Of a stretch of 38,392 bases of DNA, positions 1 through 38,392 are shown in pieces. Source of the DNA: a virus (taxonomy: Duplodnaviria; Caudoviricetes); the IMG/VR virus record IMGVR_UViG_3300044724_000815, positions 1 through 38,392 of that record; one strand, given 5' to 3'. The position numbers and the translations under genes are program-made. Position 1 is the stretch's first letter; each line of letters starts with the position of its first letter. The notes below the pieces were generated by a model. That model worked only from the letters and a program-made list of their open reading frames with translations. It was not told the DNA's origin and did no database searches.

Positions 1-13
1 ATATTATATAATA

Positions 14-49
14 ATAAAATATATATATATTTATATATATATATTTTAT
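14..49. repeat. 17-bp perfect inverted repeat in an A/T-only tract
   Basis: ATAAAATATATATATAT (14-30) and ATATATATATATTTTAT (33-49) are reverse complements; positions 1-63 contain only A/T. Confidence 0.8.
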
Positions 50-93
50 ATTATATATTATTTCATTAACCACTTTTTTCTGGAGGAAAAATT

Positions 94-300
94 ATGGAAT
101 TAACTAATGAAGAAATTGTATCAAGTAAAATACTTGAAGCAGAAAGGCATTTAGAAAAATTAATTGAAGCAATGAAAATTGTAGACTTGTTAGACAATGG
201 AGATTTACACGAGCAATTAATTACTTGGATAGAAACAGAAAAAACACTAACTTGGATTATATCAAGGTTTAAACAAATAGGAGTTATAAATGAAAAATAA
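94..300 (+). CDS. hypothetical early protein
   Basis: 68-aa ORF with GGAGG SD upstream. Confidence 0.7.
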   Translation: MELTNEEIVSSKILEAERHLEKLIEAMKIVDLLDNGDLHEQLITWIETEKTLTWIISRFKQIGVINEK

Positions 301-523
301 AACAAGCAACTACCCTTTAGCAGGGTACTTAATTAGTTTTTATGGTTTAATGTTTATGATTGTTTGTTTACCACTTTATCACTTTGATAACATAATGAAC
401 CTATTAAGTCTTGAACATTTAATAAATGAGCCTAGAGTTTTAGTGTGGTTCTTTTTGGAGTGGATTGGTTTATGCGTTATTGCTCTTGGTTTAGCAATAG
501 CAGGACTGATTCCTTGGAAATAA
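290..523 (+). CDS. small membrane protein (2 TM)
   Basis: AGGAG SD, overlaps the previous gene, two hydrophobic segments. Confidence 0.7.
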   Translation: MKNKTSNYPLAGYLISFYGLMFMIVCLPLYHFDNIMNLLSLEHLINEPRVLVWFFLEWIGLCVIALGLAIAGLIPWK

Positions 524-533
524 ATATTAACTA

Positions 534-588
534 TTGCACTATGCAACTCCCTAGTGTAGTGTAATAGCTAGTATTTAGATAATACTAG
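534..588 (+). promoter_or_regulatory. possible promoter with palindromic sites
   Basis: TTGCAC-17 nt-TAGTGT (534-562); palindromes TTGCA-CTA-TGCAA (534-546) and CTAGTATT-N5-AATACTAG (568-588). Confidence 0.4.
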
Positions 589-622
589 ATGCAGATTTTT
601 TATAACTTAATGGAGATTAAAT

Positions 623-829
623 ATGAAAACATTAATTGAAAACGTAAAATACAGAATCAGACCAAACAGAATGTTTACTAGAGGTAAGGTTCAACATTGG
701 TATGGAATCAAAGGTAGAGGTAAAGATACTTTACTATCAATATACTTTGGAAGCTATGCTTTATATGTGTTTAAGCCTAGTACATTCTGGAGTTTAGACA
801 GAGCCAAACTTAATACAAACAACCAATAA
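623..829 (+). CDS. basic hypothetical early protein
   Basis: GGAG SD; 68 aa, K/R- and aromatic-rich. Confidence 0.7.
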   Translation: MKTLIENVKYRIRPNRMFTRGKVQHWYGIKGRGKDTLLSIYFGSYALYVFKPSTFWSLDRAKLNTNNQ

Positions 830-841
830 AGGGGATTAGTT

Positions 842-1591
842 ATGAATACCAATGGTGCTATATTTTATGAAAACGATAGTATCGTTGGTATCATAACAGG
901 TTTAATGAGTGGTTCAAGTAATACAAAAACAGGTGCTATGCTTCAAACATGGATATTAGTTAAGAATGTTAATCCTATTGAAGCTGTCAACACAGGAGCA
1001 GACAAGCTAGTATGTGGTGACTGTAAGCACAGAGGAACTATACAACCTGTTAATGATACCAAAGATAAAAAATCATATTCAGTAAAGAATGGATTGAAAA
1101 CAATTAACAAAGGTAGAAAATGCTATGTTAAATTATTTCAAGCACCTTACTCAGTATGGAAAGCATATAAGAATAATAAATATCCAAAGATAAATATAAA
1201 TAAATTATCACATATGTTAACATTTAAACAGGTAAGAGTGGGTAGCTATGGTGACCCTGCTATGATACCTAGTGAAGTATGGGATAAATTAATTAGCAGG
1301 TCGTTAGGAAATACAGGATATACGCATCAATGGAAGAGATGCGATACTAAAAATTCTACTTTCAATATGGCAAGTGTTGACACATTGGAAGAGAAAAGAC
1401 AGGCAAACAAGCTAGGCTATAGAACCTTTAGAACCAGACTAGCAAGTGAGCCTATCGAACCAGACGAGGTAGTATGCTTGTCTGACAAAGTAGCAAGGGA
1501 AGGAAAGACTTTAGTTCCTTGTAGTTTATGTAAGATGTGTAGTGGTAACAACAGTCAAGTAAAGAAAAACATCACTATCATAATACATTAA
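842..1591 (+). CDS. Cys-rich gp88/DUF7227-like protein, possibly Fe-S/radical-SAM-like
   Basis: NTKTG, CGDC..CY, RVGSYGDP, GYTHQW, MASVD, RTFR and C-terminal CSLCKMC motifs. Confidence 0.6.
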   Translation: MNTNGAIFYENDSIVGIITGLMSGSSNTKTGAMLQTWILVKNVNPIEAVNTGADKLVCGDCKHRGTIQPVNDTKDKKSYSVKNGLKTINKGRKCYVKLFQAPYSVWKAYKNNKYPKININKLSHMLTFKQVRVGSYGDPAMIPSEVWDKLISRSLGNTGYTHQWKRCDTKNSTFNMASVDTLEEKRQANKLGYRTFRTRLASEPIEPDEVVCLSDKVAREGKTLVPCSLCKMCSGNNSQVKKNITIIIH

Positions 1592-1618
1592 TTTTATAAA
1601 CCTAAATGGAGAATACGC

Positions 1619-2089
1619 ATGAAAAAAGATAAATTTATAAATAAAATAGTAAACAATAGAAATACTGTACTAAAGAAAACTACCTATCGTTCAGGACTAG
1701 AGAATTATCTAGCTTTCTATGGCTATGGTTGGTACAAAATGGGTATAACTAACAATCCAGAGAGAAGAGAAAAGGAACTCAATATCTACCACTTCTCACA
1801 GGTAAAGATTATATCTACAATAAAGGTTGAAGGACAAGGAGTATTTACTGCAGAGAAGGAACTGATTAAGGTATTCAAGGATAGTGGAGCAAAAACTAAA
1901 GGAGAGTTTGTATACATACCATCAGTAGAACCAGAGGTAGTAGCTAAGAAGTATCAAGAGATAATGATTAACACAGTTAAGAAGTTAAGAAAGAATACCT
2001 TTAACAGTATGAGAAAGACTAACAATGTACTGAGAAAGAATGGCTACGATACAATCAAAACAGATGTTAGTTTAACTATTAGTAAATAA
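1619..2089 (+). CDS. GIY-YIG superfamily (T5orf172-like) protein
   Basis: YKMGITNNPERREKELN..AEKEL..GEF motif pattern. Confidence 0.65.
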   Translation: MKKDKFINKIVNNRNTVLKKTTYRSGLENYLAFYGYGWYKMGITNNPERREKELNIYHFSQVKIISTIKVEGQGVFTAEKELIKVFKDSGAKTKGEFVYIPSVEPEVVAKKYQEIMINTVKKLRKNTFNSMRKTNNVLRKNGYDTIKTDVSLTISK

Positions 2090-2093
2090 GGTA

Positions 2094-2122
2094 TTGATTA
2101 ATTGTTAAATATAATATATAAT
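2094..2122 (+). promoter_or_regulatory. sigma70-type promoter
   Basis: TTGATT (2094-2099), 17 nt, TATAAT (2117-2122); intergenic. Confidence 0.75.
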
Positions 2123-2143
2123 TCATTTTAGAAAGGAAATATT

Positions 2144-2326
2144 ATGAGTAAAGATTGTTCAATATGTGGAAGTAAGATACCACCACACACTACTCCAGAA
2201 GGGGTAGTGTATTGGGAAGGTGGACATAATGCAGAGCCATACACATCTGGTAGATGTTGTGACTTATGTCATGGAGAGTTTGTCTTACCTGCTAGACTTA
2301 AACAAATGAGAGAGGAGAGAGTATGA
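2144..2326 (+). CDS. small zinc-finger-like phage protein
   Basis: CSIC..GHNAEP..GRCCDLCH; AAGGA SD. Confidence 0.75.
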   Translation: MSKDCSICGSKIPPHTTPEGVVYWEGGHNAEPYTSGRCCDLCHGEFVLPARLKQMREERV

Positions 2327-2634
2327 AATACAAAGAAGTAACAGAAACAGTAACAACATATCCAGACTTAGATGAGGAAGAGAAACAATCTCTTAGAGAT
2401 AATCCTAAGAGTTGGAGAGTGTTTGTTACAAAAATAATTGTTGAAGAGTTTGTTGTTGATGCAGACACACAGGAAGATGCTGAATATGATGCTATGCAAA
2501 AAGCAGAGAACTCTTCAGACCCAGATGGTTCAGAGATAGAAACTATAACTGTTGACTATGCTGAACTTGATAGAGAAACATATCAAGATGATGAAATAGA
2601 ATATATACAAGAGGAGGTGTTAGATGTCACATAA
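2323..2634 (+). CDS. highly acidic protein with DpnD/PcfM-like segment
   Basis: WRVFVTKIIVEEFVVDADTQEDAE pattern; ATGA overlap; D/E-rich. Confidence 0.65.
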   Translation: MKYKEVTETVTTYPDLDEEEKQSLRDNPKSWRVFVTKIIVEEFVVDADTQEDAEYDAMQKAENSSDPDGSEIETITVDYAELDRETYQDDEIEYIQEEVLDVT

Positions 2635-2842
2635 TGGTAATGAAGAACTAAAAGAACAAGCCTTTAATGATGTAGTAGACCAATACATAGAGCAAGGCTA
2701 CACAGAAGAAGAAGCCATAGCTTTAGCTAATAAGTTTGCTGAAGACAACTCAGACTTCTGGCATGATGAAGAGCCATTAAGCTATGATGGATATGAACAA
2801 GAAGATTTATCAGACATGGATAGAGAGGAGCCTTGCATATGA
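2624..2842 (+). CDS. highly acidic hypothetical protein
   Basis: GGAGG SD; D/E-rich 72 aa. Confidence 0.75.
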   Translation: MSHNGNEELKEQAFNDVVDQYIEQGYTEEEAIALANKFAEDNSDFWHDEEPLSYDGYEQEDLSDMDREEPCI

Positions 2843-3051
2843 GTAAAGAAAAAGAACTAAAAGAAAGATTAATTAAATTAGATAATGAATACGAATGTAG
2901 TATTGCTTCAGGTACACATAGAGAACCTGATGAAATATCTGATGATGCGTATAGAGTTATCAATGAATTAATTTCTGATGAAAATATTACAGATATAAAA
3001 AGTGTAGATGATGCTCACGATTATGTAGATTGGTACAAAGAAAGACATTAA
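2839..3051 (+). CDS. acidic hypothetical protein
   Basis: GAGGAG SD; ATGA overlap at 2839. Confidence 0.7.
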   Translation: MSKEKELKERLIKLDNEYECSIASGTHREPDEISDDAYRVINELISDENITDIKSVDDAHDYVDWYKERH

Positions 3052-3071
3052 TAAATAACAATGGAGAAAAT

Positions 3072-3338
3072 ATGAAGAACTTATTTGGAAAATCAAGAAC
3101 AGTAGACAACCCTTATGCTACCTATAGACTAGGTAACTTTGAGTGGAGAGTATTAAAAACATATCAAAGAAAAGATAAAGAAGATGCCAACCAATATTCA
3201 AGGTGGTTTACTGCCTGTAAATCCCCTTACACTTATGATAGTTGGGAGTATGGAGATGCTTATATCAATGAGATTATGAGTGTAAATCCTGTGCTTGTAA
3301 GTGCTACTGATGAGTGGAAAGAAACTTATAAGAGTTAA
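3072..3338 (+). CDS. hypothetical phage protein
   Basis: GGAG SD before ATG 3072; aromatic-rich, WRVLKTYQ..SWEYGD. Confidence 0.75.
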   Translation: MKNLFGKSRTVDNPYATYRLGNFEWRVLKTYQRKDKEDANQYSRWFTACKSPYTYDSWEYGDAYINEIMSVNPVLVSATDEWKETYKS

Positions 3339-3343
3339 AAATA

Positions 3344-3482
3344 ATTCCTGATTTCGCTGATGTGAAAGAGGGATAAATGTGGTTTGTTGAGGGTTGCCCT
3401 AGTTCTTCCACTAAAAAAAGGAACTAAATTGCGAGTAATGTTTTTGGTAGTTTTTAGACTCTAAAAGAAAAAACTACCACAT
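3344..3482 (+). other. structured intergenic region with three hairpins
   Basis: stems 3344-3374, 3400-3426 and 3445-3479 (11-bp perfect); the longest non-coding gap of the early region. Confidence 0.5.
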
Positions 3483-3497
3483 AATATGGAGAATACA

Positions 3498-3668
3498 ATG
3501 AAGCTACGACAAGAACAAAAACATAAACTTGAGATGATGCTAGACGAAGCAGAAGATTTAGTAGAAGAGTTACAGAATAGTAAACTTAATAAAAGAGAAA
3601 GACTAAAAGCATGGCAGACATTAGAAGCAATATTAAAACTAATGAGATGGGAGATTAGAGATGAGTAA
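3498..3668 (+). CDS. hypothetical helical protein
   Basis: GGAG SD before ATG 3498. Confidence 0.7.
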   Translation: MKLRQEQKHKLEMMLDEAEDLVEELQNSKLNKRERLKAWQTLEAILKLMRWEIRDE

Positions 3669-3933
3669 AAGATTTAAACAAGTAAACATACAACAGTTTG
3701 CTATACTTGTGCAAGAAGTAGATATATCTAAGTATAGTCAAGAAGAGTATGTAGATATTATAGAAGAAATATATATGACTATCTTCAGACATAATACTGA
3801 TGGAGATTTTGTTATACCTACTATGCCTAACGAAGAAGGTAATTGGAAGGTGCATAAGTCTTCTGCTACCAAAGAAGAAGTAATGGAACTAATCAAGGAA
3901 GGGAGAGTTATATGGAACAAAGAAGTAATCTAA
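3661..3933 (+). CDS. hypothetical protein
   Basis: 90-aa ORF translationally coupled to neighbours. Confidence 0.7.
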   Translation: MSKRFKQVNIQQFAILVQEVDISKYSQEEYVDIIEEIYMTIFRHNTDGDFVIPTMPNEEGNWKVHKSSATKEEVMELIKEGRVIWNKEVI

Positions 3934-4118
3934 CACCACGAGAGCATTGGGAATTGCACCAAGGAGTATGGAGTAATCTAGGTTGTGATATGCAAGTATA
4001 CAAACAAGATTCTGATAGGATAATATACATTGACAAGAATAGTAAATGGGCATACAAATATGAGCATGGAGTTATAGAAAGAAAACTACAAACAAATCCT
4101 GATAGGAGGTATAGATGA
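3912..4118 (+). CDS. hypothetical protein
   Basis: GGGAG SD; 68 aa. Confidence 0.65.
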   Translation: MEQRSNLTPREHWELHQGVWSNLGCDMQVYKQDSDRIIYIDKNSKWAYKYEHGVIERKLQTNPDRRYR

Positions 4119-4282
4119 GCATAACTTTACAAAGATTAAAAAATGCAGTAAAAGATATAAAAGAAAATTCCTATGAAGGTAATGACAGTCATAGTACAGC
4201 AGAGTATAGAGGTATATGTGATGGACTAGATAGGTTATTAGAACACTTTAAGGAACTAGAGGAGAATAAAGATGCCAAGTAA
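4115..4282 (+). CDS. hypothetical protein (55 aa, below ORF-track cutoff)
   Basis: AGGAGG SD; MSITLQRLKNAVKDIK..KDAK. Confidence 0.7.
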   Translation: MSITLQRLKNAVKDIKENSYEGNDSHSTAEYRGICDGLDRLLEHFKELEENKDAK

Positions 4283-4442
4283 AGCTAAGATAAAAAAGAA
4301 ACCTAAAATTACTTGGGGTTGGATATATGGAGATGAGTGTCCAGAGCTATGGGAACACTTTGGCTTTCCATATCCAGAACCAGATGATAGAATGAAAATT
4401 AAGTTTGTTAAATATGAATCAAAGGAGATGCAAGATGGCTAA
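4272..4442 (+). CDS. hypothetical protein (56 aa, below cutoff)
   Basis: GAGGAG SD; MPSKAKIKKKPKITWGWIYGDECPELWEHFG.. Confidence 0.7.
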   Translation: MPSKAKIKKKPKITWGWIYGDECPELWEHFGFPYPEPDDRMKIKFVKYESKEMQDG

Positions 4443-4620
4443 GTATACATTGTATGCAAAGAAAGTTTATTACTATCGTAAAGAAATTACTGCTCAAGAT
4501 AGTAAGAGTGCAGAGAAAAGAGGTGCTGACTATGAAGCAGATGACAATGCAGAAAGATTGTTTGAACCTTCAGGTGAGGAGTTTTATATAACAAGTATAG
4601 AGGAGAGTGATGATGACTAG
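4435..4620 (+). CDS. small acidic DpnD/PcfM-like protein
   Basis: AAGGAG SD; YTLYAKKVYYYRKEITAQDSKSAE pattern. Confidence 0.65.
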   Translation: MAKYTLYAKKVYYYRKEITAQDSKSAEKRGADYEADDNAERLFEPSGEEFYITSIEESDDD

Positions 4621-4777
4621 ACAAGAAAAAGAAGCATTAGGTATATCAAAGTATGAAGAACTATGTGAAGCATTAGTAGGAGATAACTCTACTAAAAGAT
4701 ATACTCACGAAGATATAGTTTCATATATCTATAACTTAAAAAAGATAGAGGAGAAATTTTATGACAACAAAAACTAA
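4613..4777 (+). CDS. hypothetical protein (54 aa, below cutoff)
   Basis: AGGAG SD; fills the gap between 4620 and 4761. Confidence 0.65.
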   Translation: MTRQEKEALGISKYEELCEALVGDNSTKRYTHEDIVSYIYNLKKIEEKFYDNKN

Positions 4778-5063
4778 ACCAAAAATAGATGCAGTAACAT
4801 TAAATTTAGTTAATGTACTAAAGCAGATAGATGATAAACTCAATGAAGGTTCTTGGGAGTATATAAATCTAGGAGATGTATTAAGATTTCAAGATGTTTA
4901 TAATGAAACTATAAAGCACTACGACCTAAAGAAAGAAGGTGGTATACACGACTATGGAGCAGATAAAGGTAAGTACCAACAGTTTTATTATAGTAATTAT
5001 GTATGTCACACAGACCCAAAAGCATTTGACCCAAGCAAAGTAGAGGAGGAAGATGATGAGTAA
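4761..5063 (+). CDS. hypothetical protein
   Basis: GAGGAG SD; 100 aa. Confidence 0.75.
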   Translation: MTTKTKPKIDAVTLNLVNVLKQIDDKLNEGSWEYINLGDVLRFQDVYNETIKHYDLKKEGGIHDYGADKGKYQQFYYSNYVCHTDPKAFDPSKVEEEDDE

Positions 5064-5313
5064 ATATAAATATAGATTAGAAGAATGGTCAGAAGATACA
5101 CGAAGTTATACTATAGAATGTGACATAAAACTTTCAAAAGATGAAGTAGATTTTGCAATTTCTGAAGCAGATATAAATTATGAAGAGTCAGAAACAACAC
5201 ATAAAATTCCATTAGGTGATGATACTATTGTACACGTTACCTATCATGGTAATGAATGGGGTGATGGAAGTTCAGAGATAACAGAAGGACAGGAGGACTT
5301 AGAAGATGATTAA
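5053..5313 (+). CDS. highly acidic hypothetical protein
   Basis: GGAGGA SD; D/E-rich. Confidence 0.75.
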   Translation: MMSKYKYRLEEWSEDTRSYTIECDIKLSKDEVDFAISEADINYEESETTHKIPLGDDTIVHVTYHGNEWGDGSSEITEGQEDLEDD

Positions 5314-5632
5314 ATATATTATATATACACAAAAGAATTGTGCCTTCTGCAAGAAAGCTAAACATTTATTAGATGAAGCAGAAGAAGTATACGAAGAAAG
5401 ATTACTAGATACACCTGCAAAAATAAAAAGATTTAGAGAAGCAGGACATAAGACTGTGCCACAAATCTTTCTACACATAGGTGGGTACACAGAACTAGAA
5501 GATTTTTTGTTTCCACCAGACATAGAGTTTGATGCAGACATAAATTTAGTAGAAGAAACTAGACCTAGTGCAAAGGTGTTACCTTTCAAAGGACAGATAG
5601 GTGCTATATCAGGAGAAAAGAAAGATGAGTAA
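5306..5632 (+). CDS. grx: glutaredoxin
   Basis: CAFC active site, TVPQIF cis-Pro motif, IGGYTEL. Confidence 0.9.
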   Translation: MIKYIIYTQKNCAFCKKAKHLLDEAEEVYEERLLDTPAKIKRFREAGHKTVPQIFLHIGGYTELEDFLFPPDIEFDADINLVEETRPSAKVLPFKGQIGAISGEKKDE

Positions 5633-5789
5633 AAAAATTAAATGTCAAAGATGTAAAATAAATAAAGCATATCCAGAAGATATGGAGAACAGAGCAAGTA
5701 ATCTTTTACTATGTGATGACTGCTATACAGAACTAAGATACTTGATGGCAGATTATTTAAATATAAATATACAGGAGATTAAGGTATGA
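5625..5789 (+). CDS. small zinc-finger protein
   Basis: CQRC..LCDDC; AGGAG SD before ATG 5625. Confidence 0.7.
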   Translation: MSKKIKCQRCKINKAYPEDMENRASNLLLCDDCYTELRYLMADYLNINIQEIKV

Positions 5790-5947
5790 GTAGAAAAAAC
5801 AAAGACTTAAACAACAAAGTTGAGAAACAAACTCAAGACTTTTTAGGATTCCTATGGACTAATTGGGTTCTAATAGGCATAGGTTTTATGATGTGCTTTA
5901 TATGGTTCTGTGTATGTTGGACTGTGTGTTGGATATTTACAAGCTAA
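5786..5947 (+). CDS. small Cys/Trp-rich membrane protein (53 aa)
   Basis: AGGAG SD, ATGA overlap; ..WVLIGIGFMMCFIWFCVCWTVCWIFTS. Confidence 0.65.
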   Translation: MSRKNKDLNNKVEKQTQDFLGFLWTNWVLIGIGFMMCFIWFCVCWTVCWIFTS

Positions 5948-5950
5948 CTG

Positions 5951-5979
5951 TTGACTATTAGATATTTATAATATATAAT
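5951..5979 (+). promoter_or_regulatory. sigma70-type promoter
   Basis: TTGACT, 17 nt, TATAAT. Confidence 0.8.
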
Positions 5980-5989
5980 AAGGAAAGAT

Positions 5990-6384: not shown

Positions 6385-6514
6385 CGATAGAGAAAGAAGA
6401 TTAAAAGCTACAGGAAAATGGTTTCAAGGTAGCATTAAAAGAAACTTATGGGTAAACCATTTGTTTCCTATACTTTTAACTGTAAGTTTTATATTTTATT
6501 TACTTACATTATAA
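6377..6514 (+). CDS. small membrane protein (45 aa)
   Basis: MSNDRERRLKATGKWF.. with a C-terminal hydrophobic segment. Confidence 0.6.
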   Translation: MSNDRERRLKATGKWFQGSIKRNLWVNHLFPILLTVSFIFYLLTL

Positions 6515-8392: not shown

Positions 8393-8682
8393 TGAAGTGT
8401 TGGCATTGTGATACAGAATTAACATGGGGTGGTGACCATGATATTGACCATGAAGATGAGGACTATTGTATAGAAACAAATCTATCTTGTCCTAACTGTG
8501 GTGCTTTTCATATAGTATATCTACCTAAAGAAGAACAAGAAAATGATAAACAACAAAAATTATTTGAAGAACCAGAAATGTGGGAACACTATTGTGATAC
8601 AGAAAAAAGTATGATGGAAGTAGGTAAAGGTGAACCTTGTAATTGGTGTGGAAAGGAGGAAGATTGTGAAAGTTGTGCTTGA
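8392..8682 (+). CDS. double zinc-ribbon small protein
   Basis: CWHC..CPNC plus HYC..CNWC; GAGGAGG SD. Confidence 0.7.
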   Translation: MKCWHCDTELTWGGDHDIDHEDEDYCIETNLSCPNCGAFHIVYLPKEEQENDKQQKLFEEPEMWEHYCDTEKSMMEVGKGEPCNWCGKEEDCESCA

Positions 8683-10300
8683 TATAGAAACAGACCAGAT
8701 AGATGCTAAAGTAGTAAACTGTATTGTTGCTAAAGATATTGAAACAAATGTGTCTACAGTATTTGACCCAAGTAATATGCATGTGTTTAAGAATTGGTCT
8801 AAAGATATTGACCAATACATTATGCATAATGGTTTATCTTTTGATGCACCTGTATTAAATAGATTACTAGGCACAAATATTAAACCTTCACAGGTATTAG
8901 ATACATTAATACTATCACAGTTATTTAATCCATTGCGTGAAGGGGGTCATGGATTACGTGCCTGGGGTGATAGATTTAATTTTCCTAAAGGTGATATAGA
9001 ATCCTTTGGAAGATATACAGAAGAACTAAAAAGATATTGTATGCAAGATGTAGACATAACACATAAGTTATACGAACATTTAAAGAAAGAAGGCAAAGGT
9101 TTTTCTAAGTCTTCTATTGATTTAGAACATCAGGTCAGAGTTATTATTGACCAACAAGAAAAGAATGGATTTGCATTAGATGTTCGTAAAGCTATGTCTT
9201 TATACAATACATTAAAAGATGAAGCTAGTGCTTTAGAAACATGGGGCAAGACACACTTTGACCCTACAAGAAAAGACTTAAAAACAAAAACAAAATACAT
9301 ACCTTTTAATATAGGTTCACGACAACAGATATCTGATAGATTACAAGAGCTAGGTTGGAAACCTAAGAAGCATACTGATAAAGGTAATGTAATTGTTAAT
9401 GAAGAAGTTTTGAATAGCATAGACTTAGAAGAAGCAAAGAAGTTTGCTAGGTATTTGTTATTGCAAAAAAGAATTGCACAGATTAAATCTTGGATTGAAT
9501 CGTGTAATGATAAGGATGGTAGAGTACATGGTAGAGTTATGACATTACGTACTGTAACAGGTCGTATGGCACATAACAGTCCTAACATGGCTCAGATTCC
9601 TGCTGTTCGTTCTCCATATGGTAAAGAGTGTAGGGAATGTTGGACTGTTGACAATCCCTATACTCACTCCATTGTTGGTACTGATGCTAGTGGTTTAGAA
9701 CTTAGATGTTTAGCACATCTTATGGATGATAAAAACTTTACTGAAGAAGTTTTAAATGGTGATATACATACAGCTAATATGAAGATGGCAGGTCTAACAG
9801 ATAGAGACCAAGCCAAAACATTTATATATGCTTTTATGTATGGTGCAGGTGCAGCGAAAATAGGTAAGATAGTAGGTGCAGGTGCTAAAGAAGGACAGAT
9901 ATTAATAGATAGGTTTCTTTCTAATATGCCTGCTCTTAAAAGAGTTAGGGATAGTGTAACTGAAACAGCTAAGAGAGGTAAGATAAGAGGTATTGATGGT
10001 AGACTATTGCATGTACGTTCTCCACATAGTGCATTGAATACATTACTGCAAGGAGCAGGTGCTGTTGTATGTAAGTTGTGGTTAATAAACATGAATAAAA
10101 GAATAGTACAAACAGGTGTTGATGCTAAGTTAGTTGCATCTATACATGATGAATACCAATATGAAGTTGCAAAGAAAGATGTAAAAAGATTTGGTAGTAT
10201 TACCAAAGATGCTATGAAAGATACAGAGCATCAGTTAAAAATGAAGTGTCCATTAGATAGTGAATGGAAGGAGGGAAACACATGGGCAGAGACACATTAG
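8666..10300 (+). CDS. polA: family A DNA polymerase, T7 gp5-like, with 3'-5' exonuclease
   Basis: DIETD exo I, HNGLSFD exo II, motif A DASGLELR, motif B KTFIYAFMYG, motif C HDE; GTG start at 8666 after AGGAGG. Confidence 0.97.
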   Translation: MKVVLDIETDQIDAKVVNCIVAKDIETNVSTVFDPSNMHVFKNWSKDIDQYIMHNGLSFDAPVLNRLLGTNIKPSQVLDTLILSQLFNPLREGGHGLRAWGDRFNFPKGDIESFGRYTEELKRYCMQDVDITHKLYEHLKKEGKGFSKSSIDLEHQVRVIIDQQEKNGFALDVRKAMSLYNTLKDEASALETWGKTHFDPTRKDLKTKTKYIPFNIGSRQQISDRLQELGWKPKKHTDKGNVIVNEEVLNSIDLEEAKKFARYLLLQKRIAQIKSWIESCNDKDGRVHGRVMTLRTVTGRMAHNSPNMAQIPAVRSPYGKECRECWTVDNPYTHSIVGTDASGLELRCLAHLMDDKNFTEEVLNGDIHTANMKMAGLTDRDQAKTFIYAFMYGAGAAKIGKIVGAGAKEGQILIDRFLSNMPALKRVRDSVTETAKRGKIRGIDGRLLHVRSPHSALNTLLQGAGAVVCKLWLINMNKRIVQTGVDAKLVASIHDEYQYEVAKKDVKRFGSITKDAMKDTEHQLKMKCPLDSEWKEGNTWAETH

Positions 10301-11364
10301 TAAAAGAGTTTAAAGGTAGACATGACCACAAAGATTATATTAAACGTGGTATTAAAACAGAGAATATGTTTATAGATGAAGCAGTTAAGTTAGGGTATCA
10401 AGTAGAGGTTGCTTCTGATTCTCAGAACATGTCTGACCATATTGATTTAATATTAACAAAGGAGGAAATAAAATTTACAGTAGATGTAAAAGCAAGAAGA
10501 ACAGGAACAGACAAGTCAAAAGGTTTTGATGACTTGTGGATTGTAGTGGAGTTCAAGAATACTATGGGTAATCAAGGTTGGCTATATGGCAAATGTGATT
10601 ACTTTGTTTTTGAACAGGAAGATAAATATCTTTTGGTTGACTCTAAAGAGTTACGAGAATTATGTCACGAAGTTGTAGACTTAAATGACAGGGTAAATAG
10701 TTTTCGTAATGCAAACTATAAAGTTTGGGGTAGGAGTTACCAAAACAAACAAGACTTAATATCTAGAATAGAAACTTCAAAAGTTTTACAATTAAATAAT
10801 ACATTTATTTGGAAAAAAAGTATTGACTTTTCTAATCAGGTATGCGATAATTCTATTTTAACAACAAAAAAGGATAATAATAATATGAGTGTAATAAAAG
10901 GTAATGCCCATTGGGCAAGTATAACAAGTCCAAATACAACATTTGATTCAGATGGTGTATGGACTATAGATGTAGGTAATCTTGACGAGAAGAATAAAAA
11001 GATTGCTCAAGCTGATGGAATCTCTGTGAAGAATAAGAATGATGACAGAGGTGACTTTGTTACTATCAAAAGAAAAGTAAGAAGAAAAGATGGTAACTTA
11101 AATAAGGCTCCTGAAGTTGTAGATGCTCAGAAGAGAGCAATGATTGGTACATTAATTGGTAATGGTTCTGAAGTTAATGTATTATACTCTACATATGAGT
11201 GGGAGTTTGGTGGTAAGTCTGGTGTATCTGCTGATTTAAGAGCAATACAAGTAACCAACTTAGTACCTTATAATACTGATGCAGATGCTGATGAAGCATT
11301 TGGTGTAGTTGAAGATGGTTTTGTATCTAAAGAAGCTGACGAAGAAGTTTCTTTTGCTAGTTAA
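10282..11364 (+). CDS. PD-(D/E)XK nuclease-like domain read in frame into SSB
   Basis: HIDL..VDVKA..WIVVEF..GWLYG; no stop before the SSB part; GGAGG SD before ATG 10282. Confidence 0.7.
   Translation: MGRDTLVKEFKGRHDHKDYIKRGIKTENMFIDEAVKLGYQVEVASDSQNMSDHIDLILTKEEIKFTVDVKARRTGTDKSKGFDDLWIVVEFKNTMGNQGWLYGKCDYFVFEQEDKYLLVDSKELRELCHEVVDLNDRVNSFRNANYKVWGRSYQNKQDLISRIETSKVLQLNNTFIWKKSIDFSNQVCDNSILTTKKDNNNMSVIKGNAHWASITSPNTTFDSDGVWTIDVGNLDEKNKKIAQADGISVKNKNDDRGDFVTIKRKVRRKDGNLNKAPEVVDAQKRAMIGTLIGNGSEVNVLYSTYEWEFGGKSGVSADLRAIQVTNLVPYNTDADADEAFGVVEDGFVSKEADEEVSFAS
10823..10851 (+). promoter_or_regulatory. internal sigma70-type promoter for SSB
   Basis: TTGACT, 17 nt, GATAAT with extended -10 TG and an upstream A-tract. 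Confidence 0.7.
10885..11364 (+). CDS. ssb: single-stranded DNA-binding protein, T7 gp2.5-like
   Basis: AAAGGA SD; G.A.WA...PNT, IGNGS.V.V, L.A.QV..LV.Y motifs; acidic tail with a near-terminal Phe. Confidence 0.88.
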   Translation: MSVIKGNAHWASITSPNTTFDSDGVWTIDVGNLDEKNKKIAQADGISVKNKNDDRGDFVTIKRKVRRKDGNLNKAPEVVDAQKRAMIGTLIGNGSEVNVLYSTYEWEFGGKSGVSADLRAIQVTNLVPYNTDADADEAFGVVEDGFVSKEADEEVSFAS

Positions 11365-11427: not shown

Positions 11428-12291
11428 ATGAAAACAATAGACACATTAGTAGAGGATATATATAATTTATTTGACCCTATGGTTACGAATACTATAGATG
11501 ATAAAGAATTAGATAAACATCTAAAAGAATTTACAAAGAACGTAACTAATAATATTAAAACTGTTTTAAATGAACAACCTAGAAAGCAAAGAAGATTATC
11601 TTTATCAGCTATAGGTAAACCTACTAGACAGTTATGGTATGATAAACACTCTAGTTCAGAAGCAAGACCTATATCTTCTGCTACTAGAATTAAATTTTTA
11701 TATGGTCACATACTTGAAGACTTACTTATACTATTGTCTAGAGCATCTGGTCATATTGTTACTGAAGAACAGAAACAAGTAAACGTAGAAGGTATTAAAG
11801 GACATCAAGACTGTAAGATAGATGGTGAATTAGTAGATTGTAAGAGTGCTAGTGGTTACTCATTCAAAAAGTTTGCTAATAATAACTTAGCTAATGATGA
11901 CCCTTTTGGATACATAGCACAAATATCTGCATACTCTGCAGGTAATGATGTTAAAGAAGCATACTTCTTAGCTATAGATAAACAACATGGCAACCTTGCC
12001 TTAACAAGAGTACATGATTTGGAGATGATAAATGCAAAGGAAAGAATTAAATATCTCAAAGGTGCGTTGGAAAGTACAACACCTCCTGATAGATGTTATA
12101 GTGATATTCCTGAAGGTGTTTCTGGTAATCGTAAGCTTGCTATTGGTTGTGTCTTTTGTGCTCATAAGAGGGAGTGTTGGTCTGATGCTAACAATGGCAA
12201 AGGGCTTCGTGCATTTAAGTACGAAAGAGGTACAACATATCTTACACAAGTTTCAAAAGAACCTAGGGTTCAAGAAAATTTAGATTGGTAA
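11428..12291 (+). CDS. PD-(D/E)XK (Cas4/RecB-like) exonuclease
   Basis: LSAIG..RQLWY, GHILE, GHQD..VDCKS, QISAY, CVFC..C. Confidence 0.85.
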   Translation: MKTIDTLVEDIYNLFDPMVTNTIDDKELDKHLKEFTKNVTNNIKTVLNEQPRKQRRLSLSAIGKPTRQLWYDKHSSSEARPISSATRIKFLYGHILEDLLILLSRASGHIVTEEQKQVNVEGIKGHQDCKIDGELVDCKSASGYSFKKFANNNLANDDPFGYIAQISAYSAGNDVKEAYFLAIDKQHGNLALTRVHDLEMINAKERIKYLKGALESTTPPDRCYSDIPEGVSGNRKLAIGCVFCAHKRECWSDANNGKGLRAFKYERGTTYLTQVSKEPRVQENLDW

Positions 12292-13201: not shown

Positions 13202-15113
13202 CTATTTACCTACAGAGTATCAGACGTTTATACATGCGTCTAGATATGCACGTTGGTTACAAGAAGATAACAGAAGAGAGAGTTGGATTGAAACAGTATC
13301 TAGGTTTAGTAACTTCTTTCAAGGACACTTAGATAAAAATCTAGGTGTTATCTTACCTCCAGAAGTATGGAGAAGAATAGAAGATAGTATTATAGGACTG
13401 CAAGTTATGCCTTCTATGAGAGCATTGATGACAGCAGGTCCTGCATTAGAAAGAGAAAACATATCAGGATATAATTGTTCTTATACTCCTATAGATAGTC
13501 CACGTTCTTTTGATGAGATACTTTATATACTTATGAATGGTACAGGTGTAGGTTTCTCTGTTGAAAGAGAAGGTGTTAATCAATTACCTACTATACCTGA
13601 TAGAGAGTTTGAACAAACAGAAGATGTTATATCTGTAGCTGATTCTAAAGAGGGATGGGCTAGAGCATTTAGAGACTTAGTGTCTTATCTATATACATGT
13701 AGAATACCTAAGATAGATATTAACAAAGTAAGACCTGCAGGTGCTAGGTTAAATACCTTTGGAGGTAGAGCTAGTGGTCCTCAACCTTTAGTTAATCTAT
13801 TTGATTTTACTATTAATAAATTTAAAGAAGCTAAAGGTAGAAAGCTATCCTCTATGGAGTGTCACGATATTGTGTGTAAGACTGGTGAAGTTGTGGTTGT
13901 TGGTGGTGTGCGTAGGTCAGCTCTTATATCTCTGTCTAATTTATCAGACCAGAGATTAAGAGTTGCCAAGTCTGGTGCTTGGTGGGAGACAAACCCTGAA
14001 AGAGCATTAGCTAATAACTCAGTAGCCTATACAGAGAAACCTGATGCAGGTATCTTTATGAAAGAATGGTTAGCATTATATGAAAGTAAGTCAGGTGAAC
14101 GTGGTATCTTTAGTAGAGTATCTGCTCAAGCAAAAGCTAAAGAGAATGGTAGACGTAAATCAGACTATGCATTTGGTACTAATCCTTGTAGTGAGATTAT
14201 ACTTAGACCTAATCAGTTCTGTAACTTAACTGAAGTAGTATGTAGACCTGCTGATACAGTAGAAACATTAAAAGATAAAATAGAAGTAGCTACTATACTA
14301 GGTACAATACAAGCTACACTTACTAACTTTGGTTATCTTAGAAAGAGATGGAAAGATAATACAGAAGAAGAAAGATTACTTGGTGTATCATTAACAGGTA
14401 TTATGGATAATAGTATACTATCTAGAAGAAGAAGTACATTACCAGAAACACTACAAGATATGAGACAAAAAGCTGTGACAGTAAACAAGGAATGGTCAGA
14501 GAAGCTAGGTATACCACAATCAACAGCTATTACTTGTGTTAAACCTTCAGGTACAGTTAGTCAGTTAGTAGATAGTGCTAGTGGTATTCATGCTAGACAT
14601 AACCCTTACTATATTAGAACAGTAAGAGGAGATAAGAAAGACCCTTTAACAGAGTTTATGAAAGACCAGGGTATACCTTGTGAAGATGATGTTATGAATC
14701 CACATAATGCTGTGTTTTCTTTTCCTATGAAAGCAGATTCTAATGCTGTATTCAGAGATGATATGACAGCTATAGAACAGCTAGAGATATGGAAGTGTTA
14801 TGCAGAGCATTGGTGTGAACATAAACCATCAGTAACTATATCAGTTAAAGAACATGAATGGATTAATGTAGGTAACTGGTGTTGGGATAACTTTGATGCA
14901 CTATCTGGTATATCCTTCTTACCTTTCTCTGACCATACATATCAACAAGCACCTTATCAAGACATAGATAAAGCTACATATGAAGAGCTTGCATCTAAGA
15001 TGCCTAAGAATATTAACTGGTCTGAGCTTAGTAATTTTGAGAAAGAAGATACAACAAAAGGATCACAGGAGTTAGCATGTACAGCAGGTTCTTGCGAATT
15101 AGTAGATATTTAG
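13188..15113 (+). CDS. nrdJ: class II adenosylcobalamin-dependent ribonucleotide reductase
   Basis: YNC, GGVRRSA, TNPCSEI, CNL, KPSGT, C-terminal CTAGSC; no beta-subunit gene nearby. Confidence 0.92.
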   Translation: MAGNNYLPTEYQTFIHASRYARWLQEDNRRESWIETVSRFSNFFQGHLDKNLGVILPPEVWRRIEDSIIGLQVMPSMRALMTAGPALERENISGYNCSYTPIDSPRSFDEILYILMNGTGVGFSVEREGVNQLPTIPDREFEQTEDVISVADSKEGWARAFRDLVSYLYTCRIPKIDINKVRPAGARLNTFGGRASGPQPLVNLFDFTINKFKEAKGRKLSSMECHDIVCKTGEVVVVGGVRRSALISLSNLSDQRLRVAKSGAWWETNPERALANNSVAYTEKPDAGIFMKEWLALYESKSGERGIFSRVSAQAKAKENGRRKSDYAFGTNPCSEIILRPNQFCNLTEVVCRPADTVETLKDKIEVATILGTIQATLTNFGYLRKRWKDNTEEERLLGVSLTGIMDNSILSRRRSTLPETLQDMRQKAVTVNKEWSEKLGIPQSTAITCVKPSGTVSQLVDSASGIHARHNPYYIRTVRGDKKDPLTEFMKDQGIPCEDDVMNPHNAVFSFPMKADSNAVFRDDMTAIEQLEIWKCYAEHWCEHKPSVTISVKEHEWINVGNWCWDNFDALSGISFLPFSDHTYQQAPYQDIDKATYEELASKMPKNINWSELSNFEKEDTTKGSQELACTAGSCELVDI

Positions 15114-34947: not shown

Positions 34948-35024
34948 TAGTTATCACACTCACAAAGTTTACCAAATAATCTTTTCTTAAATTTTTTATA
35001 AAAATCTTTTATTCTATCTAACAT
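34947..35024 (-). CDS. miniprotein (25 aa)
   Basis: MLDRIKDFYKKFKKRLFGKLCECDN; overlaps both neighbours. Confidence 0.5.
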   Translation of the reverse strand: MLDRIKDFYKKFKKRLFGKLCECDN

Positions 35025-35652
35025 ACTCTTTAACATCATAATCATCACTCCATCTGTTTATTCTTGCTACTTCTGTTACATTACCATCACTATCTCTAGT
35101 GTCTTCATATAATGCTTTAAAAGCTGCCATATCAGAAGCTGCATCTATAGCTGCTTCAATAGCTGCACAGTCTGTCTTAATGTCTCCTACATATGTTCCA
35201 ACAGCACTTGGTATAGTTTTACTACTATCATATGCTTGTCGTTCTACAAGCCAATTAAATCTCTTTATAAGACCATTAGCTTGTTGTTTAGCTTTTTCTT
35301 TAGCTATAGATTTTAAACCTAATGTTACTGTTTGATTGCCTTTGTAATCTGTTATTGCATTACCATCTTCATCCACATCATTAGTATCTGTTAATACTTT
35401 ATCAGTTATAGTATAAGCAGTTGTTACTCTATTATTACTAGAATCAAATGTATAGGTAGCTTGTGAAGTATATTGAAATCTATCATCTCCTTTAGTACCT
35501 GTATCCACTACAGGATATATTCCTATAGCAGCTTTCTCAGCATCTGTATATTTTGTAAACATATTAGATGGATAACGAACCTCACCTATTACCAAAGATT
35601 TTGGTCTTTGATATATTTGTTCTATTTTATTATCCTTTATTAAAGCCCACAT
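35014..35652 (-). CDS. tail fibre assembly/chaperone-like protein
   Basis: YP..F....EK.AIGIY, W.V.R..IP..I..A pattern; AGGAG SD. Confidence 0.6.
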   Translation of the reverse strand: MWALIKDNKIEQIYQRPKSLVIGEVRYPSNMFTKYTDAEKAAIGIYPVVDTGTKGDDRFQYTSQATYTFDSSNNRVTTAYTITDKVLTDTNDVDEDGNAITDYKGNQTVTLGLKSIAKEKAKQQANGLIKRFNWLVERQAYDSSKTIPSAVGTYVGDIKTDCAAIEAAIDAASDMAAFKALYEDTRDSDGNVTEVARINRWSDDYDVKEYVR

Positions 35653-35663
35653 ATTATTCTCCT

Positions 35664-37406
35664 TTAGAATGTGTTATTATAACGAAATGGCACGTCACCA
35701 AAGCAACCATAAACAAAAGTACTGCTTTGATTTATAGTATTGTTACTAGTTCTGATTTTAAAGCCATTCGAAAGCATATCTATTGCTCTTGTACTTCCAT
35801 CAAATTCAGCAGTAGGATTTTCATATCTAAGAACTCTTGAAATACCTCTATTAAAAGGGTCTCTAGCTGTATCATAGACTACCCAGTCATCAGCATTATC
35901 TGCTTCTTTAATCCAAAGCATACGTGGTCTAAATCCTGTGTAAACAAATGGACCATCATCATTTATATTTCCTTCATAACTTCCAAACCTACTGTAGCCT
36001 TCAACATTATGCCACGCATAAGCAACATAAGTTTCACTATTTGCATTTACTCTACCTTCAGTACCAAAAGTTATAAGACTGTCAGTAGGCTCTGTATCAT
36101 TCCAAAAAAGAGTTGAAGTACCTGCAGCAGCATTACTATTTAAAGCAAGATATTTTGTAGCTCCTAAAGCACTATGATAAACTCCCCAAGTTTGAGAAGA
36201 ACTTCTTCTTTTAGTAAATATTAAATCTGGTTTAGCTGATAATCCATGTCCTATAGTTGCACCTGCACTTCCATTTCCTGTATAAGTCATAATGCTAAAC
36301 CCACCTTTAGTATTTGCTTGTACTGTAGAAGTTATTGAACCACTACCATTACTAGATGTTGTTCCTCCATTAGCCTTCCAAGACCATGATACAAAATTTA
36401 TAGAACTACCATTATATCCAGTTTCACTACCTAATGTAAAACCATCAGTACCAAATGCAGTTACACCATTACCTTCAGAAACATCTCCACCATCTGTATT
36501 AGACTTTAATGCTACTCCAACACCTCTTGTTGAATCAACTAATCTATTATCAGTACTATCATTTCTACCTTTAATCCATATTAGGTCAGGTTTAAATCCT
36601 AATCCTGTTATTGCATTAGTACTAGCATTACCACTATAAAGAACTGTATTAAAATTCTTAGCAGGATAATCAGTATCAGTTTGTGCAGGGTCTATGTCAT
36701 CTGATATGGGTAAGTTACCTGAACATGGTGCTAAAAAACCTGATGGTGGAGTATAGTAAAAATCTCCAAAACCATTACCATCAGCATTTCCTTGTGCTGT
36801 AGCTCTACCTGCAAAAGAACTATCCTGTCCTGCATTCATTGTATGCCAACAAGCATTATGAGAACCTGACCAAAAAGCCCAATTTCCACTAGCACTTGAG
36901 TTTAAAGTTTCAGCAGTCCCTACAGCACTACCATTTCTATAAAATTGAACTGTTTGTGTACCACTATCTAAATCTAGTGCCATTCCTATAATATCACCAT
37001 CTACCCATCTAGTGTTTGTAAAAGTTTGTGATGGATTGCTACCACCTGTTTGATTATTACATATACCAGTAGTTGTACTTGTTCCATCAACATCTCCACC
37101 TATATATTGTACTGTGTAATCATTAACTGTAGGGTTTCTTTGTCTATTATCATTGTACTTTGCATCAATGTTAGGAAAGTAATGGTCTACGACTGCTACA
37201 TAACCCCTTCCACTTTCACTTCTTACATAGATATAAAACTCAACATACCATTTACCAGAGTCAAAAGTAAAATTAGATGGTCTACCCCAACCTCCTGCAG
37301 TTGCATATCCTTGTAGATTACCAGTATCTAACTTACTATAAGTAGCAGAATAAGAATTTAAATAAGCTACTCTATTAAAAGTCATAAAATTTCCACTACT
37401 TGCCAT
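35664..37406 (-). CDS. tail fibre/receptor-binding protein (SPRY-like plus repeated beta domains)
   Basis: SGKWYVE..DIIGMALDLD..FYRNG; GFKPDLIWIK.R; GHGL..P..K.R. Confidence 0.75.
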   Translation of the reverse strand: MASSGNFMTFNRVAYLNSYSATYSKLDTGNLQGYATAGGWGRPSNFTFDSGKWYVEFYIYVRSESGRGYVAVVDHYFPNIDAKYNDNRQRNPTVNDYTVQYIGGDVDGTSTTTGICNNQTGGSNPSQTFTNTRWVDGDIIGMALDLDSGTQTVQFYRNGSAVGTAETLNSSASGNWAFWSGSHNACWHTMNAGQDSSFAGRATAQGNADGNGFGDFYYTPPSGFLAPCSGNLPISDDIDPAQTDTDYPAKNFNTVLYSGNASTNAITGLGFKPDLIWIKGRNDSTDNRLVDSTRGVGVALKSNTDGGDVSEGNGVTAFGTDGFTLGSETGYNGSSINFVSWSWKANGGTTSSNGSGSITSTVQANTKGGFSIMTYTGNGSAGATIGHGLSAKPDLIFTKRRSSSQTWGVYHSALGATKYLALNSNAAAGTSTLFWNDTEPTDSLITFGTEGRVNANSETYVAYAWHNVEGYSRFGSYEGNINDDGPFVYTGFRPRMLWIKEADNADDWVVYDTARDPFNRGISRVLRYENPTAEFDGSTRAIDMLSNGFKIRTSNNTINQSSTFVYGCFGDVPFRYNNTF

Positions 37407-37412
37407 ATCTAT

Positions 37413-38270
37413 TTAACTCCCAAATGTTGGACTATCAAGAACTTGATGGTCTGCACCAAGTCCTGCAGCAACTGCAAAATCATTATTGTTTCCTGAACTA
37501 TCATTTCCTAAATCTCCTGAATTTTCAAATTTAAGATGAAACCCATTTGTACCAAAGGTTGTACCACTAGGGTCTTTTGGAATCCACACCCCATTCTTTG
37601 ATTCACCAAATTGAGTAGCTGAATAAGATTGCCCATCTGCAAAAATTACTTCTGCTAAATAAGCATCTAAATCATTTCCACCATCTGTTCCTGCACCAAT
37701 AGAATGAACATCTCCATTTGTGTTGAATCTATTAAAATCTCCTGCAGGAATATTAGTAGTACATCTAGTTTTTAAATCACCATTTACATAATATTTAACT
37801 CTGCTACCTGATGATTGGCTTGTGTCTGCTTGAATAACTATATGCATCCATGCAGTTGTATCTCTGTAATACCCATCTATTCTATCATCTCCACCACTTG
37901 TTCCTCCAGATGTTCCACTTAATCCATACCATGCAATTCTATCTCTATTATCTAGAGCAGTTCCAGTTCCAGATGTTCCACCACCAGATTCAAAACCAAA
38001 GGCTGAACCTCCTCCACCAATTCCAGTTCCTCTACTAATAATCTGTTGCCATCCTGTATTACCACCATCTGCATAAGTTGAACTTCTTTTAACCCAACAT
38101 GAAAATGTAAACTTTGTTAAATCACTAGAAGTACCAAAAGTTCTACTTAAACTATCACTACTAGCTGCTTCAAATCTACAGCTCTGTTCTATCTGATGTG
38201 AATAAAATCCACCACCACCTGCACTTGCTGCTGCTGCAGCTCCCATTAAATTATTTTGAAAGACTCCCAT
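37413..38270 (-). CDS. concanavalin A/LamG-like tail protein
   Basis: FTFSCWVKR, RD..AWMHIV..D, YVNG, W.PK..FG.NGFHL.F..LGND.SG. Confidence 0.8.
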   Translation of the reverse strand: MGVFQNNLMGAAAAASAGGGGFYSHQIEQSCRFEAASSDSLSRTFGTSSDLTKFTFSCWVKRSSTYADGGNTGWQQIISRGTGIGGGGSAFGFESGGGTSGTGTALDNRDRIAWYGLSGTSGGTSGGDDRIDGYYRDTTAWMHIVIQADTSQSSGSRVKYYVNGDLKTRCTTNIPAGDFNRFNTNGDVHSIGAGTDGGNDLDAYLAEVIFADGQSYSATQFGESKNGVWIPKDPSGTTFGTNGFHLKFENSGDLGNDSSGNNNDFAVAAGLGADHQVLDSPTFGS

Positions 38271-38392
38271 TATGCGTATGCCTGTGAAATTACCATTTGA
38301 ATATCTCCACCAACTCCATCACTAGATGCTGATACAATAATATAATCTAATCTATCTACTGCACCATCTGCTGTTGATAAGGTTGGGTCTGT
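38270..38392 (-). CDS. C-terminal part of a tail fibre-like protein, truncated by the window edge
   Basis: TDPTLSTADGAVDRLDYIIVSASSDGVGGDIQMVISQAYA*; resembles the C-terminus of 33727..34647. Confidence 0.65.
   Translation of the reverse strand, partial: TDPTLSTADGAVDRLDYIIVSASSDGVGGDIQMVISQAYA

What the first reader, a model, noticed from the sequence alone, without database searches (positions are those of the whole stretch)
1..38392. Trinucleotide CCG/CGG appears completely absent
Seen: I read through the CG dinucleotides (well over a hundred) and found none preceded by C or followed by G. ACG, TCG, GCG, CGA, CGT and CGC all occur. Avoiding the palindrome CCGG alone would not remove the whole 3-mer on both strands and in all frames. 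Inference: strong selection from a host defence or DNA-modifying system that reads a very short asymmetric motif, or from several overlapping CCG-containing sites. Alternatively the phage's own nuclease cuts CCG in host DNA while the phage genome is immune by absence.
Basis: partly seen in the sequence, partly recalled or inferred. Interest (0 to 1): 0.75.

Follow-up and report, generated by a model that had tools for sequence, protein, structure and literature searches.

The report
Phage's own nuclease explains missing CCG
This marine phage has no CCG anywhere in 38 kb and carries an undescribed restriction-enzyme-like gene whose relatives in hundreds of unrelated phage contigs almost always go with loss of CCGG, so the phage likely cuts host or rival DNA at such sites and protects itself, without a methylase, by having nothing to cut.

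Summary
Confirmed: CCG/CGG occurs 0 times, against 53 (Markov) or 83 (codon shuffle) expected. The window is an uncultured marine podovirus. A 180-aa ORF at 10282, between DNA polymerase and the SSB-like gene, has a predicted PD-(D/E)XK nuclease fold, intact catalytic residues, no Pfam family and no detected partner DNA methylase. Its family (A) tracks one missing word. Across 300 loci (24-52% GC) CCGG is 15 vs 2159 expected; a prediction written beforehand held in 126 of 129 new loci. Close alleles go further: CCG 9 vs 1458. The slot is a swappable cassette. Its other occupant, family B, goes with GATC 0 vs 2839, including cultured pelagiphages and HMO-2011. A lineage that swapped A for B regained CCGA/CCGT. 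A third family goes with loss of CGCG. Against: a sister clade without A is also nearly CCG-free (46 vs 557), so host or competitor pressure on CCG exists too; an Arg-loop specificity idea failed; there is no biochemistry; the host is unknown. The scan noted CCG-free phages (read as host defence) and nuclease-linked word loss on other DNA. Verdict: own nuclease explains CCGG (~0.9) and probably all CCG (~0.6).

The parts
1..38392 (.). Window-wide absence of CCG/CGG in a 65%-complete marine podovirus record
   Evidence: completeness; marine and estuary runs
10282..10821 (+). Family A PD-(D/E)XK-type endonuclease domain (E27, D55, D68, K70, E90); start overlaps the last codons of the polymerase; frame stays open into the SSB-like gene to 11364
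   Evidence: alignments; model pLDDT 87.5; folds; dN/dS 0.10-0.44; trait link
8669..10300 (+). Family A DNA polymerase; left flank of the swappable slot
10823..10851 (+). Sigma70-like promoter (TTGACT-N17-GATAAT) at the right edge of the slot, shared by A- and B-carrying relatives
   Evidence: pattern match and junction comparison; function inferred
10888..11364 (+). SSB-like gene (label inferred from position and acidic tail; no family hit); right flank of the slot
11428..12291 (+). Cas4-domain exonuclease; could process the breaks; also present in relatives that keep CCG
   Evidence: PHROG 1990; distribution
15061..15064 (.). The only GATC in the window (109 expected); GATC is the word linked to the alternative slot occupant B

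Best explanation
The phage carries an orphan, restriction-like nuclease gene (10282) that likely cuts unmodified DNA at CCGG and, in this lineage, likely at any CCG; its genome has no CCG, which would make it immune without a methylase. The gene lies in the replication operon and is inferred to be made with the polymerase, to break the host chromosome for shut-off and nucleotides (with the downstream exonuclease), and possibly to cut co-infecting phages. Shown: the absence, an intact gene under purifying selection, the predicted fold, the family-wide link to CCGG loss, the cassette swaps and the return of CCGA/CCGT after a swap. Inferred: cleavage, the site, the relaxed CCG specificity, timing and target.
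For: (1) Family A: CCGG 15 vs 2159 expected over 300 loci. Of 47 testable 70%-identity cluster representatives 46 have none, against 1/38 to 9/52 for nine other palindromes and 11/33 for loci with no family hit. (2) Prediction noted first, then 149 new loci: 14 vs 1601, zero in 126 of 129. The 3 exceptions have their sites in the last or first ~1 kb of the contig. (3) Whole records: in a 168-kb phage CCGG (0 vs 56) is the only missing 3-5-mer; a 135-kb record with both A and B lacks CCGG (0 vs 140) and GATC (0 vs 400). (4) Close alleles: CCG 9 vs 1458 in 76 loci; 5 vs 578 in 8 long records, all 5 in one CG-rich terminal 800 bp of G070. (5) The polymerase tree nests a B-carrying lineage inside the A clade. 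It keeps most of the window's other avoided words (CCAGC 0/42, CATCG 0/15, GGCC 0/15, GAGGC 0/19) but has CCGA 22/43 and CCGT 11/46; a very recent swap still has none. (6) Parallel families: B with GATC 0 vs 2839 (81 loci), C with CGCG 0 vs 911 (86 loci). HTVC011P (B) has 0 GATC, while HTVC027P (no B hit), listed on the same host strain HTCC1062, has 182 in 50 kb. (7) No PF00145 or PF01555 methylase in the window, G007 (99% complete) or G033. (8) CCG-wide loss recurs in other family A phages: G053 0/74, G054 0/27, G072 1/165.
Against: A sister clade carries B, has no A hit even in a 99%-complete record, and still has CCG at 46 vs 557, with 0 vs 28 in its replication genes. Its members differ by up to 24% in polymerase, so this is unlikely to be legacy alone. 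B-carrying outgroups have CCG at 120 vs 431, and CCGC/CCGG stay near zero in most lineages without A. The close A alleles form one clade, so the swap-and-regain is about one independent event; CACTG partly returned there too (12/59), which may mean a host shift. Most family A members lack only CCGG. Some A phages carry CCG (L006 6 counts including one CCGG, L129 3, G070 5, G051 8 in one gene). The idea that loss of a loop arginine widens specificity failed its prospective test. G057 and G058 lack CCGG and GATC with no A or B hit. A distant A carrier (G041) has a C5 methylase. No cleavage was shown.
Confidence: 0.62

Rival explanations
1. Composite cause: the phage's own enzyme cuts only CCGG, and CCGA, CCGC and CCGT are removed by host systems (several overlapping restriction sites or one CCG-reading defence) shared by this phage group.
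For: The A-less sister clade is nearly CCG-free in core genes. CCGC is near zero in most lineages. The window also avoids many restriction-type words. Most family A members lack only CCGG.
Against: CCGA/CCGT return after the A-to-B swap while most other avoided words stay at zero. In close-A phages even tail-fibre genes are clean (G007 0/123), while G060 has normal CCG in its tail fibres (16 vs 18.5).
Confidence: 0.25
2. Host defence alone removes CCG; the nuclease is a passenger (for example an Hjc-like resolvase or a long-site homing endonuclease) whose link to the trait comes from shared ancestry.
For: Top folds are I-Ssp6803I and Hjc. The slot also receives HNH/EndoVII-like genes. Close-A phages lack endonuclease I. 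Restriction-site avoidance is a known strategy (PMC6286503, passages).
Against: It cannot explain CCGG loss in 46 of 47 clusters from 24-52% GC phages, the A+B record, or the same-host pelagiphage pair for B. Endonuclease I is also missing from A-less relatives G006, G015 and L236.
Confidence: 0.08
3. Methylation of CCG followed by deamination, or low-GC codon bias, erased the word.
For: CpG o/e is 0.16 and CA/TG is above expectation.
Against: The codon shuffle expects at least 60. The deamination products CTGG/CCAG (99 vs 159-191) and TCG are themselves depleted. Relatives of equal GC keep CCG (G006 49/52). Mutation bias would not track a gene.
Confidence: 0.03

Closest known systems
T4 endonuclease II (DenA)
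   Same: Phage-encoded, short or loose recognition around a C:G pair, starts host DNA degradation and nucleotide scavenging (PMC2764454, passages; 10.1101/2025.11.05.686725, passages).
   Different: EndoII is GIY-YIG and T4 is protected by hydroxymethylcytosine. Here the fold is PD-(D/E)XK and protection is inferred to be absence of the site.
Type IIP restriction enzymes MspI/HpaII (CCGG; HpaII recalled)
   Same: Inferred core site CCGG; PD-(D/E)XK fold (MspI 1sa3 Z 6.3, rmsd 4.8, 135 aligned).
   Different: No Pfam or PADLOC family hit, 9% identity to MspI, about 170 aa, phage-borne, no partner methylase detected.
PD-(D/E)XK homing endonuclease I-Ssp6803I and free-standing phage homing endonucleases
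   Same: Best structural match (Z 9.9, rmsd 3.1, 122 aligned); sits in a swappable slot beside essential genes (compare PMC10448857, abstract); carrier immune by lacking the site; could exclude competitors as PhiPA3 gp210 does (PMC11620839, abstract).
   Different: The genomic footprint is a 3-4-bp word lost genome-wide, not one long target.
Restriction-site avoidance in virulent phages (PMC6286503, passages)
   Same: Complete loss of short words from a phage genome.
   Different: That survey pairs phages with host-encoded enzymes; here the lost word follows a phage-encoded gene, and it is 3 bases and asymmetric.
Chlorovirus R-M and nicking enzymes such as Nt.CviPII (recalled, from no call)
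   Same: Virus-encoded short-site nucleases against host DNA, including 3-base asymmetric sites.
   Different: Those come with cognate methylases and methylated genomes.

Membership tests
PD-(D/E)XK nuclease superfamily | Core fold of a mixed beta-sheet with flanking helices | tested here: met
   Model pLDDT 87.5; Foldseek E 1.5e-4 to 2ost; Z 9.9, 8.9, 8.8 to I-Ssp6803I, NhoI, Hjc
PD-(D/E)XK nuclease superfamily | Catalytic D...(D/E)xK residues | tested here: met
   D55, D68, K70 (with E27, E90) invariant in 23 close homologs; D55, K70, E90 invariant in 45 distant ones
Type II restriction-modification system | Cognate methyltransferase | tested here: not met
   No PF00145 or PF01555 in G000, G007 (99% complete) or G033; none among 58 window ORFs. 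The Dam family was not searched separately; the window is 65% complete
Type II restriction-modification system | Cleavage at a fixed 4-8-bp site | not testable with these tools
   Only the genomic footprint is available
MspI/HpaII/HinP1I enzyme families | Sequence-profile membership | tested here: inconclusive
   No such Pfam hit for 23 members at E up to 1, no PADLOC hit, no PDB sequence hit below E 0.13; fold Z only 5.8-6.3
Homing endonuclease | Mobile occupant of a fixed site beside a conserved gene | tested here: met
   A, B and HNH-like genes share the same start overlapping the polymerase end; A and B share the right junction at the promoter
Homing endonuclease | One long recognition site in the empty allele | not tested
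   The genome-wide loss of a short word argues against it but is no test
Holliday junction resolvase (Hjc / T7 endonuclease I role) | Replaces endonuclease I; structure-specific cleavage | tested here: inconclusive
   A phages lack endonuclease I, but so do A-less G006, G015, L236, L240
T4 EndoII-type host degradation | Phage DNA protected by modified bases | tested here: inconclusive
   No base-modification enzyme recognised; the GT8/methyltransferase genes at 16013-19703 also have look-alikes in G023, which keeps CCG; virion DNA chemistry unknown

The most novel reading that the evidence does not exclude
Many phages carry swappable, methylase-free restriction-like nucleases (family A alone has over 1,500 clusters at 50% identity) that tell self from non-self only by genome-wide absence of their site. 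This lineage evolved a 3-base, asymmetric CCG cutter from a CCGG cutter, and phages sharing a host purge each other's words (CCG and GATC) in a phage-versus-phage nuclease conflict. The missing word of a genome then predicts the specificity of an unannotated gene: A = CCGG/CCG, B = GATC, C = CGCG/GCG.
Probability: 0.5. Interest if true: 0.9.

Novelty: new variant of a known kind. Interest (0 to 1): 0.8.

Why it matters
It would add a way for a phage to destroy host or competitor DNA without modifying its own. It would reassign some 'restriction-site avoidance' from host defence to phage offence, including the loss of GATC in cultured, abundant marine phages (HMO-2011, HTVC011P, HTVC103P, HTVC120P). 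It gives testable specificities to three large unannotated protein families and may supply small (140-180 aa) nucleases, one possibly with a 3-base site. Family B can be tested at once in cultured phage-host pairs.

Tried and rejected
Genes at 1619 and 11428 as the cause: they do not track the trait. Arg-loop idea: in the first set Arg was present in only 1 of 74 CCG-free loci, but prospectively L433, L434 and L512 keep the Arg and are CCG-free, and L553 and L270 lack it with substantial CCG; several 'no Arg' rows are pattern failures. Rejected as a rule. Homodimer prediction: no answer, score 0.00. Family B model too poor (pLDDT 46.5) for a fold search, and A, B and C do not align by hhalign (probability under 5%), so B and C are called nucleases from motifs and footprint only. 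Host: genome-contig scans with A1 found nothing and with Hsp20 only 25-40% matches; Hsp20 and IscU searches named no host; best cultured matches are weak (polymerase 47% to HTVC115P; RNR 64% to roseophages). No cultured phage carries family A; the one hit is a 636-kb uncultured record. No second CCG nuclease candidate among 29 small ORFs of G060, only its endonuclease I. Expression: contigs from three RNA libraries cover the gene, but that does not show transcription. Bases aligned opposite regained CCG sites were uninformative about route. Ten paper searches returned no report of this mechanism or these families; subscription journals, REBASE and supplements were not searched.
Full report
Observation. 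CCG and CGG are both absent from the 38,392 bases, the only 3-mer pair missing; 52.6 are expected from dinucleotides (P about 1e-25) and 82.9 (minimum 60 in 300 runs) from synonymous-codon shuffling. All four regions tested are at zero. CpG is low overall (o/e 0.16) and other words are also purged: GATC 1 vs 109, GGCC, GCGC, CGCG, GGCG, CACTG, CCAGC and several 6-bp palindromes.

What the window is. A 65%-complete record of an uncultured podovirus-like phage found in marine and estuary runs: primase/helicase, DNA polymerase A, Cas4-like exonuclease, class II RNR, Hsp20, holin, M15 endolysin and virion genes. Near-complete relatives are 53-62 kb. The host was not identified.

The candidate gene. 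Relatives are either CCG-free or not, even at 94-96% RNR identity. The state follows the slot between polymerase and the SSB-like gene. In the window the slot holds a 180-aa domain starting at 10282 with no Pfam, PHROG or PADLOC hit. Its model (pLDDT 87.5) matches PD-(D/E)XK nucleases: I-Ssp6803I Z 9.9, NhoI 8.9, Hjc 8.8, MspI 6.3. E27, D55, D68, K70 and E90 are invariant in close homologs; dN/dS is 0.10-0.44 in 14 pairs. A profile finds 1,576 clusters at 50% identity. No C5 or N4/N6 methylase was found in the window, G007 (99% complete) or G033. In 33 of 62 close loci, the window included, the frame runs on into the SSB-like gene.

Family A and CCGG. In the first 325 loci, the 136 with a family A hit held 1 CCGG against 534 expected. 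I noted a prediction and scanned again with a different alignment. Of 158 newly numbered loci I dropped 9 as repeats of contigs already held; a few that remain belong to clades seen before. The 149 left had 14 CCGG against 1601, zero in 126 of the 129 with at least 3 expected, while other palindromes were zero in at most 19 of 148. The three exceptions have their sites at contig ends. Pooled over 546 loci: 300 A loci, 24-52% GC, 56 clusters at 70% identity, CCGG 15 vs 2159; 46 of 47 testable cluster representatives are at zero, against 11 of 33 loci with no family hit. In whole records CCGG is the only missing 3-5-mer of a 168-kb phage (0 vs 56) and of G041 (0 vs 34).

From CCGG to CCG. The window's clade of alleles lacks all four CCGN words: 9 vs 1458 in 76 loci; 5 vs 578 in eight long records, the five lying in one CG-rich terminal 800 bp. 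Unrelated A carriers G053, G054 and G072 are also CCG-free (0/74, 0/27, 1/165), and one clade is intermediate (o/e 0.25). These were found with A as bait, so they do not measure enrichment.

A natural experiment. The slot is a cassette: A, B and HNH-like occupants start at the same ATG inside the last polymerase codons, and A and B relatives share the right junction at the SSB promoter. On the polymerase tree (98 sequences) a B lineage nested in the A clade has regained CCGA (22/43) and CCGT (11/46) while keeping CCAGC, CATCG, GGCC, GAGGC and GAATTC at zero; CACTG partly returned (12/59); a very recent swap (L196, L197, L201) is still CCG-free. Basal A phages keep GATC (398/562) and lack CCG.

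Parallel families. B goes with GATC 0 vs 2839 in 81 loci and C (found in G023) with CGCG 0 vs 911 in 86 loci; two C lineages have lost nearly all GCG. A 135-kb record with A and B lacks CCGG (0/140) and GATC (0/400). Cultured B carriers HMO-2011, HTVC120P, HTVC011P and HTVC103P have no GATC in the DNA read (first 50 kb for the two longer ones); HTVC027P and CRP-2, with no B hit, have 182 and 167 in their first 50 kb. HTVC011P and HTVC027P are listed on the same host strain. I read 4 of the 44 B-hit records. B and C are called nucleases from motifs only.

Results against. A sister clade (55 loci, 50 with B, none with A) has CCG at 46 vs 557 in six long records, and a 99%-complete member has no A homolog. 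Its core genes are at zero but its tail fibres are normal (16 vs 18.5), unlike close-A phages. B outgroups are at 28% of expectation, and CCGC and CCGG are avoided by most of the group. Likewise the window's subclade lacks GATC without carrying B. So something besides A selects against CCG: a host system, an unrecognised nuclease, or co-infecting A phages. The Arg-loop idea failed. G057 and G058 lack CCGG and GATC without A or B hits. Several A phages carry a few CCG.

Mechanism. Most likely the gene is expressed with the polymerase, cuts unprotected DNA at CCGG and, in this clade, at CCG, and selection has removed every site from the phage, mainly by synonymous change. The role would be that of T4 EndoII in host shut-off and nucleotide scavenging (PMC2764454 and 10.1101/2025.11.05.686725, passages read), with exclusion of rival phages as a second benefit (compare PMC11620839 and PMC10448857, abstracts read). 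I put the CCGG link to the own enzyme at about 0.9 and the whole CCG loss at about 0.6.

Novelty. Site avoidance is usually tied to host enzymes (PMC6286503, passages read). Ten searches (listings only, plus passages of PMC2993543) showed no report of methylase-free short-site phage nucleases protected by site absence, nor of these families; the library lacks most subscription papers and no supplements were read. Unchecked notes of this scan describe a CCG-free phage read as host defence and nuclease-linked word loss with HinP1I- or MspI-type enzymes (seen after my reading was formed). I file this as a new variant of a known kind, interest 0.8.

Noticed in passing
G052 (L393) 1-13029: Family A carrier with a single CG in 13 kb (about 300 expected from base composition; 0 vs 271 in L296); its close relative G051 has 92 in 31 kb. 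Possibly a CG-reading enzyme or host system.
   Followed up: partly
G023 33374-32874 (L167:12877-13347, minus): Family C gene between primase and polymerase; record has GCG/CGC 1 vs 126; L366-L372 have 1-4 vs 46-154; all 86 C loci lack CGCG.
   Followed up: partly
HMO-2011 phage1322_19, HTVC120P gp16, HTVC103P gp33, HTVC011P ~13744-14118: Unannotated family B genes in cultured phages that have no GATC in the DNA read; 44 records hit in the phage collection.
   Followed up: partly
window 10282-11364: Nuclease frame runs without a stop into the SSB-like gene in 33 of 62 close loci; a nuclease-SSB fusion may be made beside free SSB.
   Followed up: partly
G006, L026, L002, L003, G023: CCGG is enriched (G006 17 vs 4; G023 32 vs 10) while other CG words are depleted; may reflect host methylation shielding CCGG.
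   Followed up: no
L018, L022-L025, L038, L042: Phages with GCG at 2-9 vs 25-82 and CCWGG near zero, with no A, B or C hit in the fetched DNA.
   Followed up: no
G007, G013, G026, L006, L122, L129, L131, L149 (polymerase-SSB slot): An EndoVII/HNH-like gene is inserted ahead of family A at the same start site.
   Followed up: no
G060 40719-41431: IscA/IscU-like iron-sulfur assembly genes in the sister clade.
   Followed up: partly
window 16013-19703: GT8-like, MptE-like (766 aa) and SAM-methyltransferase genes shared across the group; probably virion glycan synthesis, untested.
   Followed up: no
window 5951, 6701, 8334, 10823, 15204: Near-consensus sigma70-like promoters; no RNA polymerase gene was found in the window.
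   Followed up: no
G057, G058: Family C records that also lack CCGG and GATC with no A or B hit; further nuclease families or host systems may be involved.
   Followed up: no
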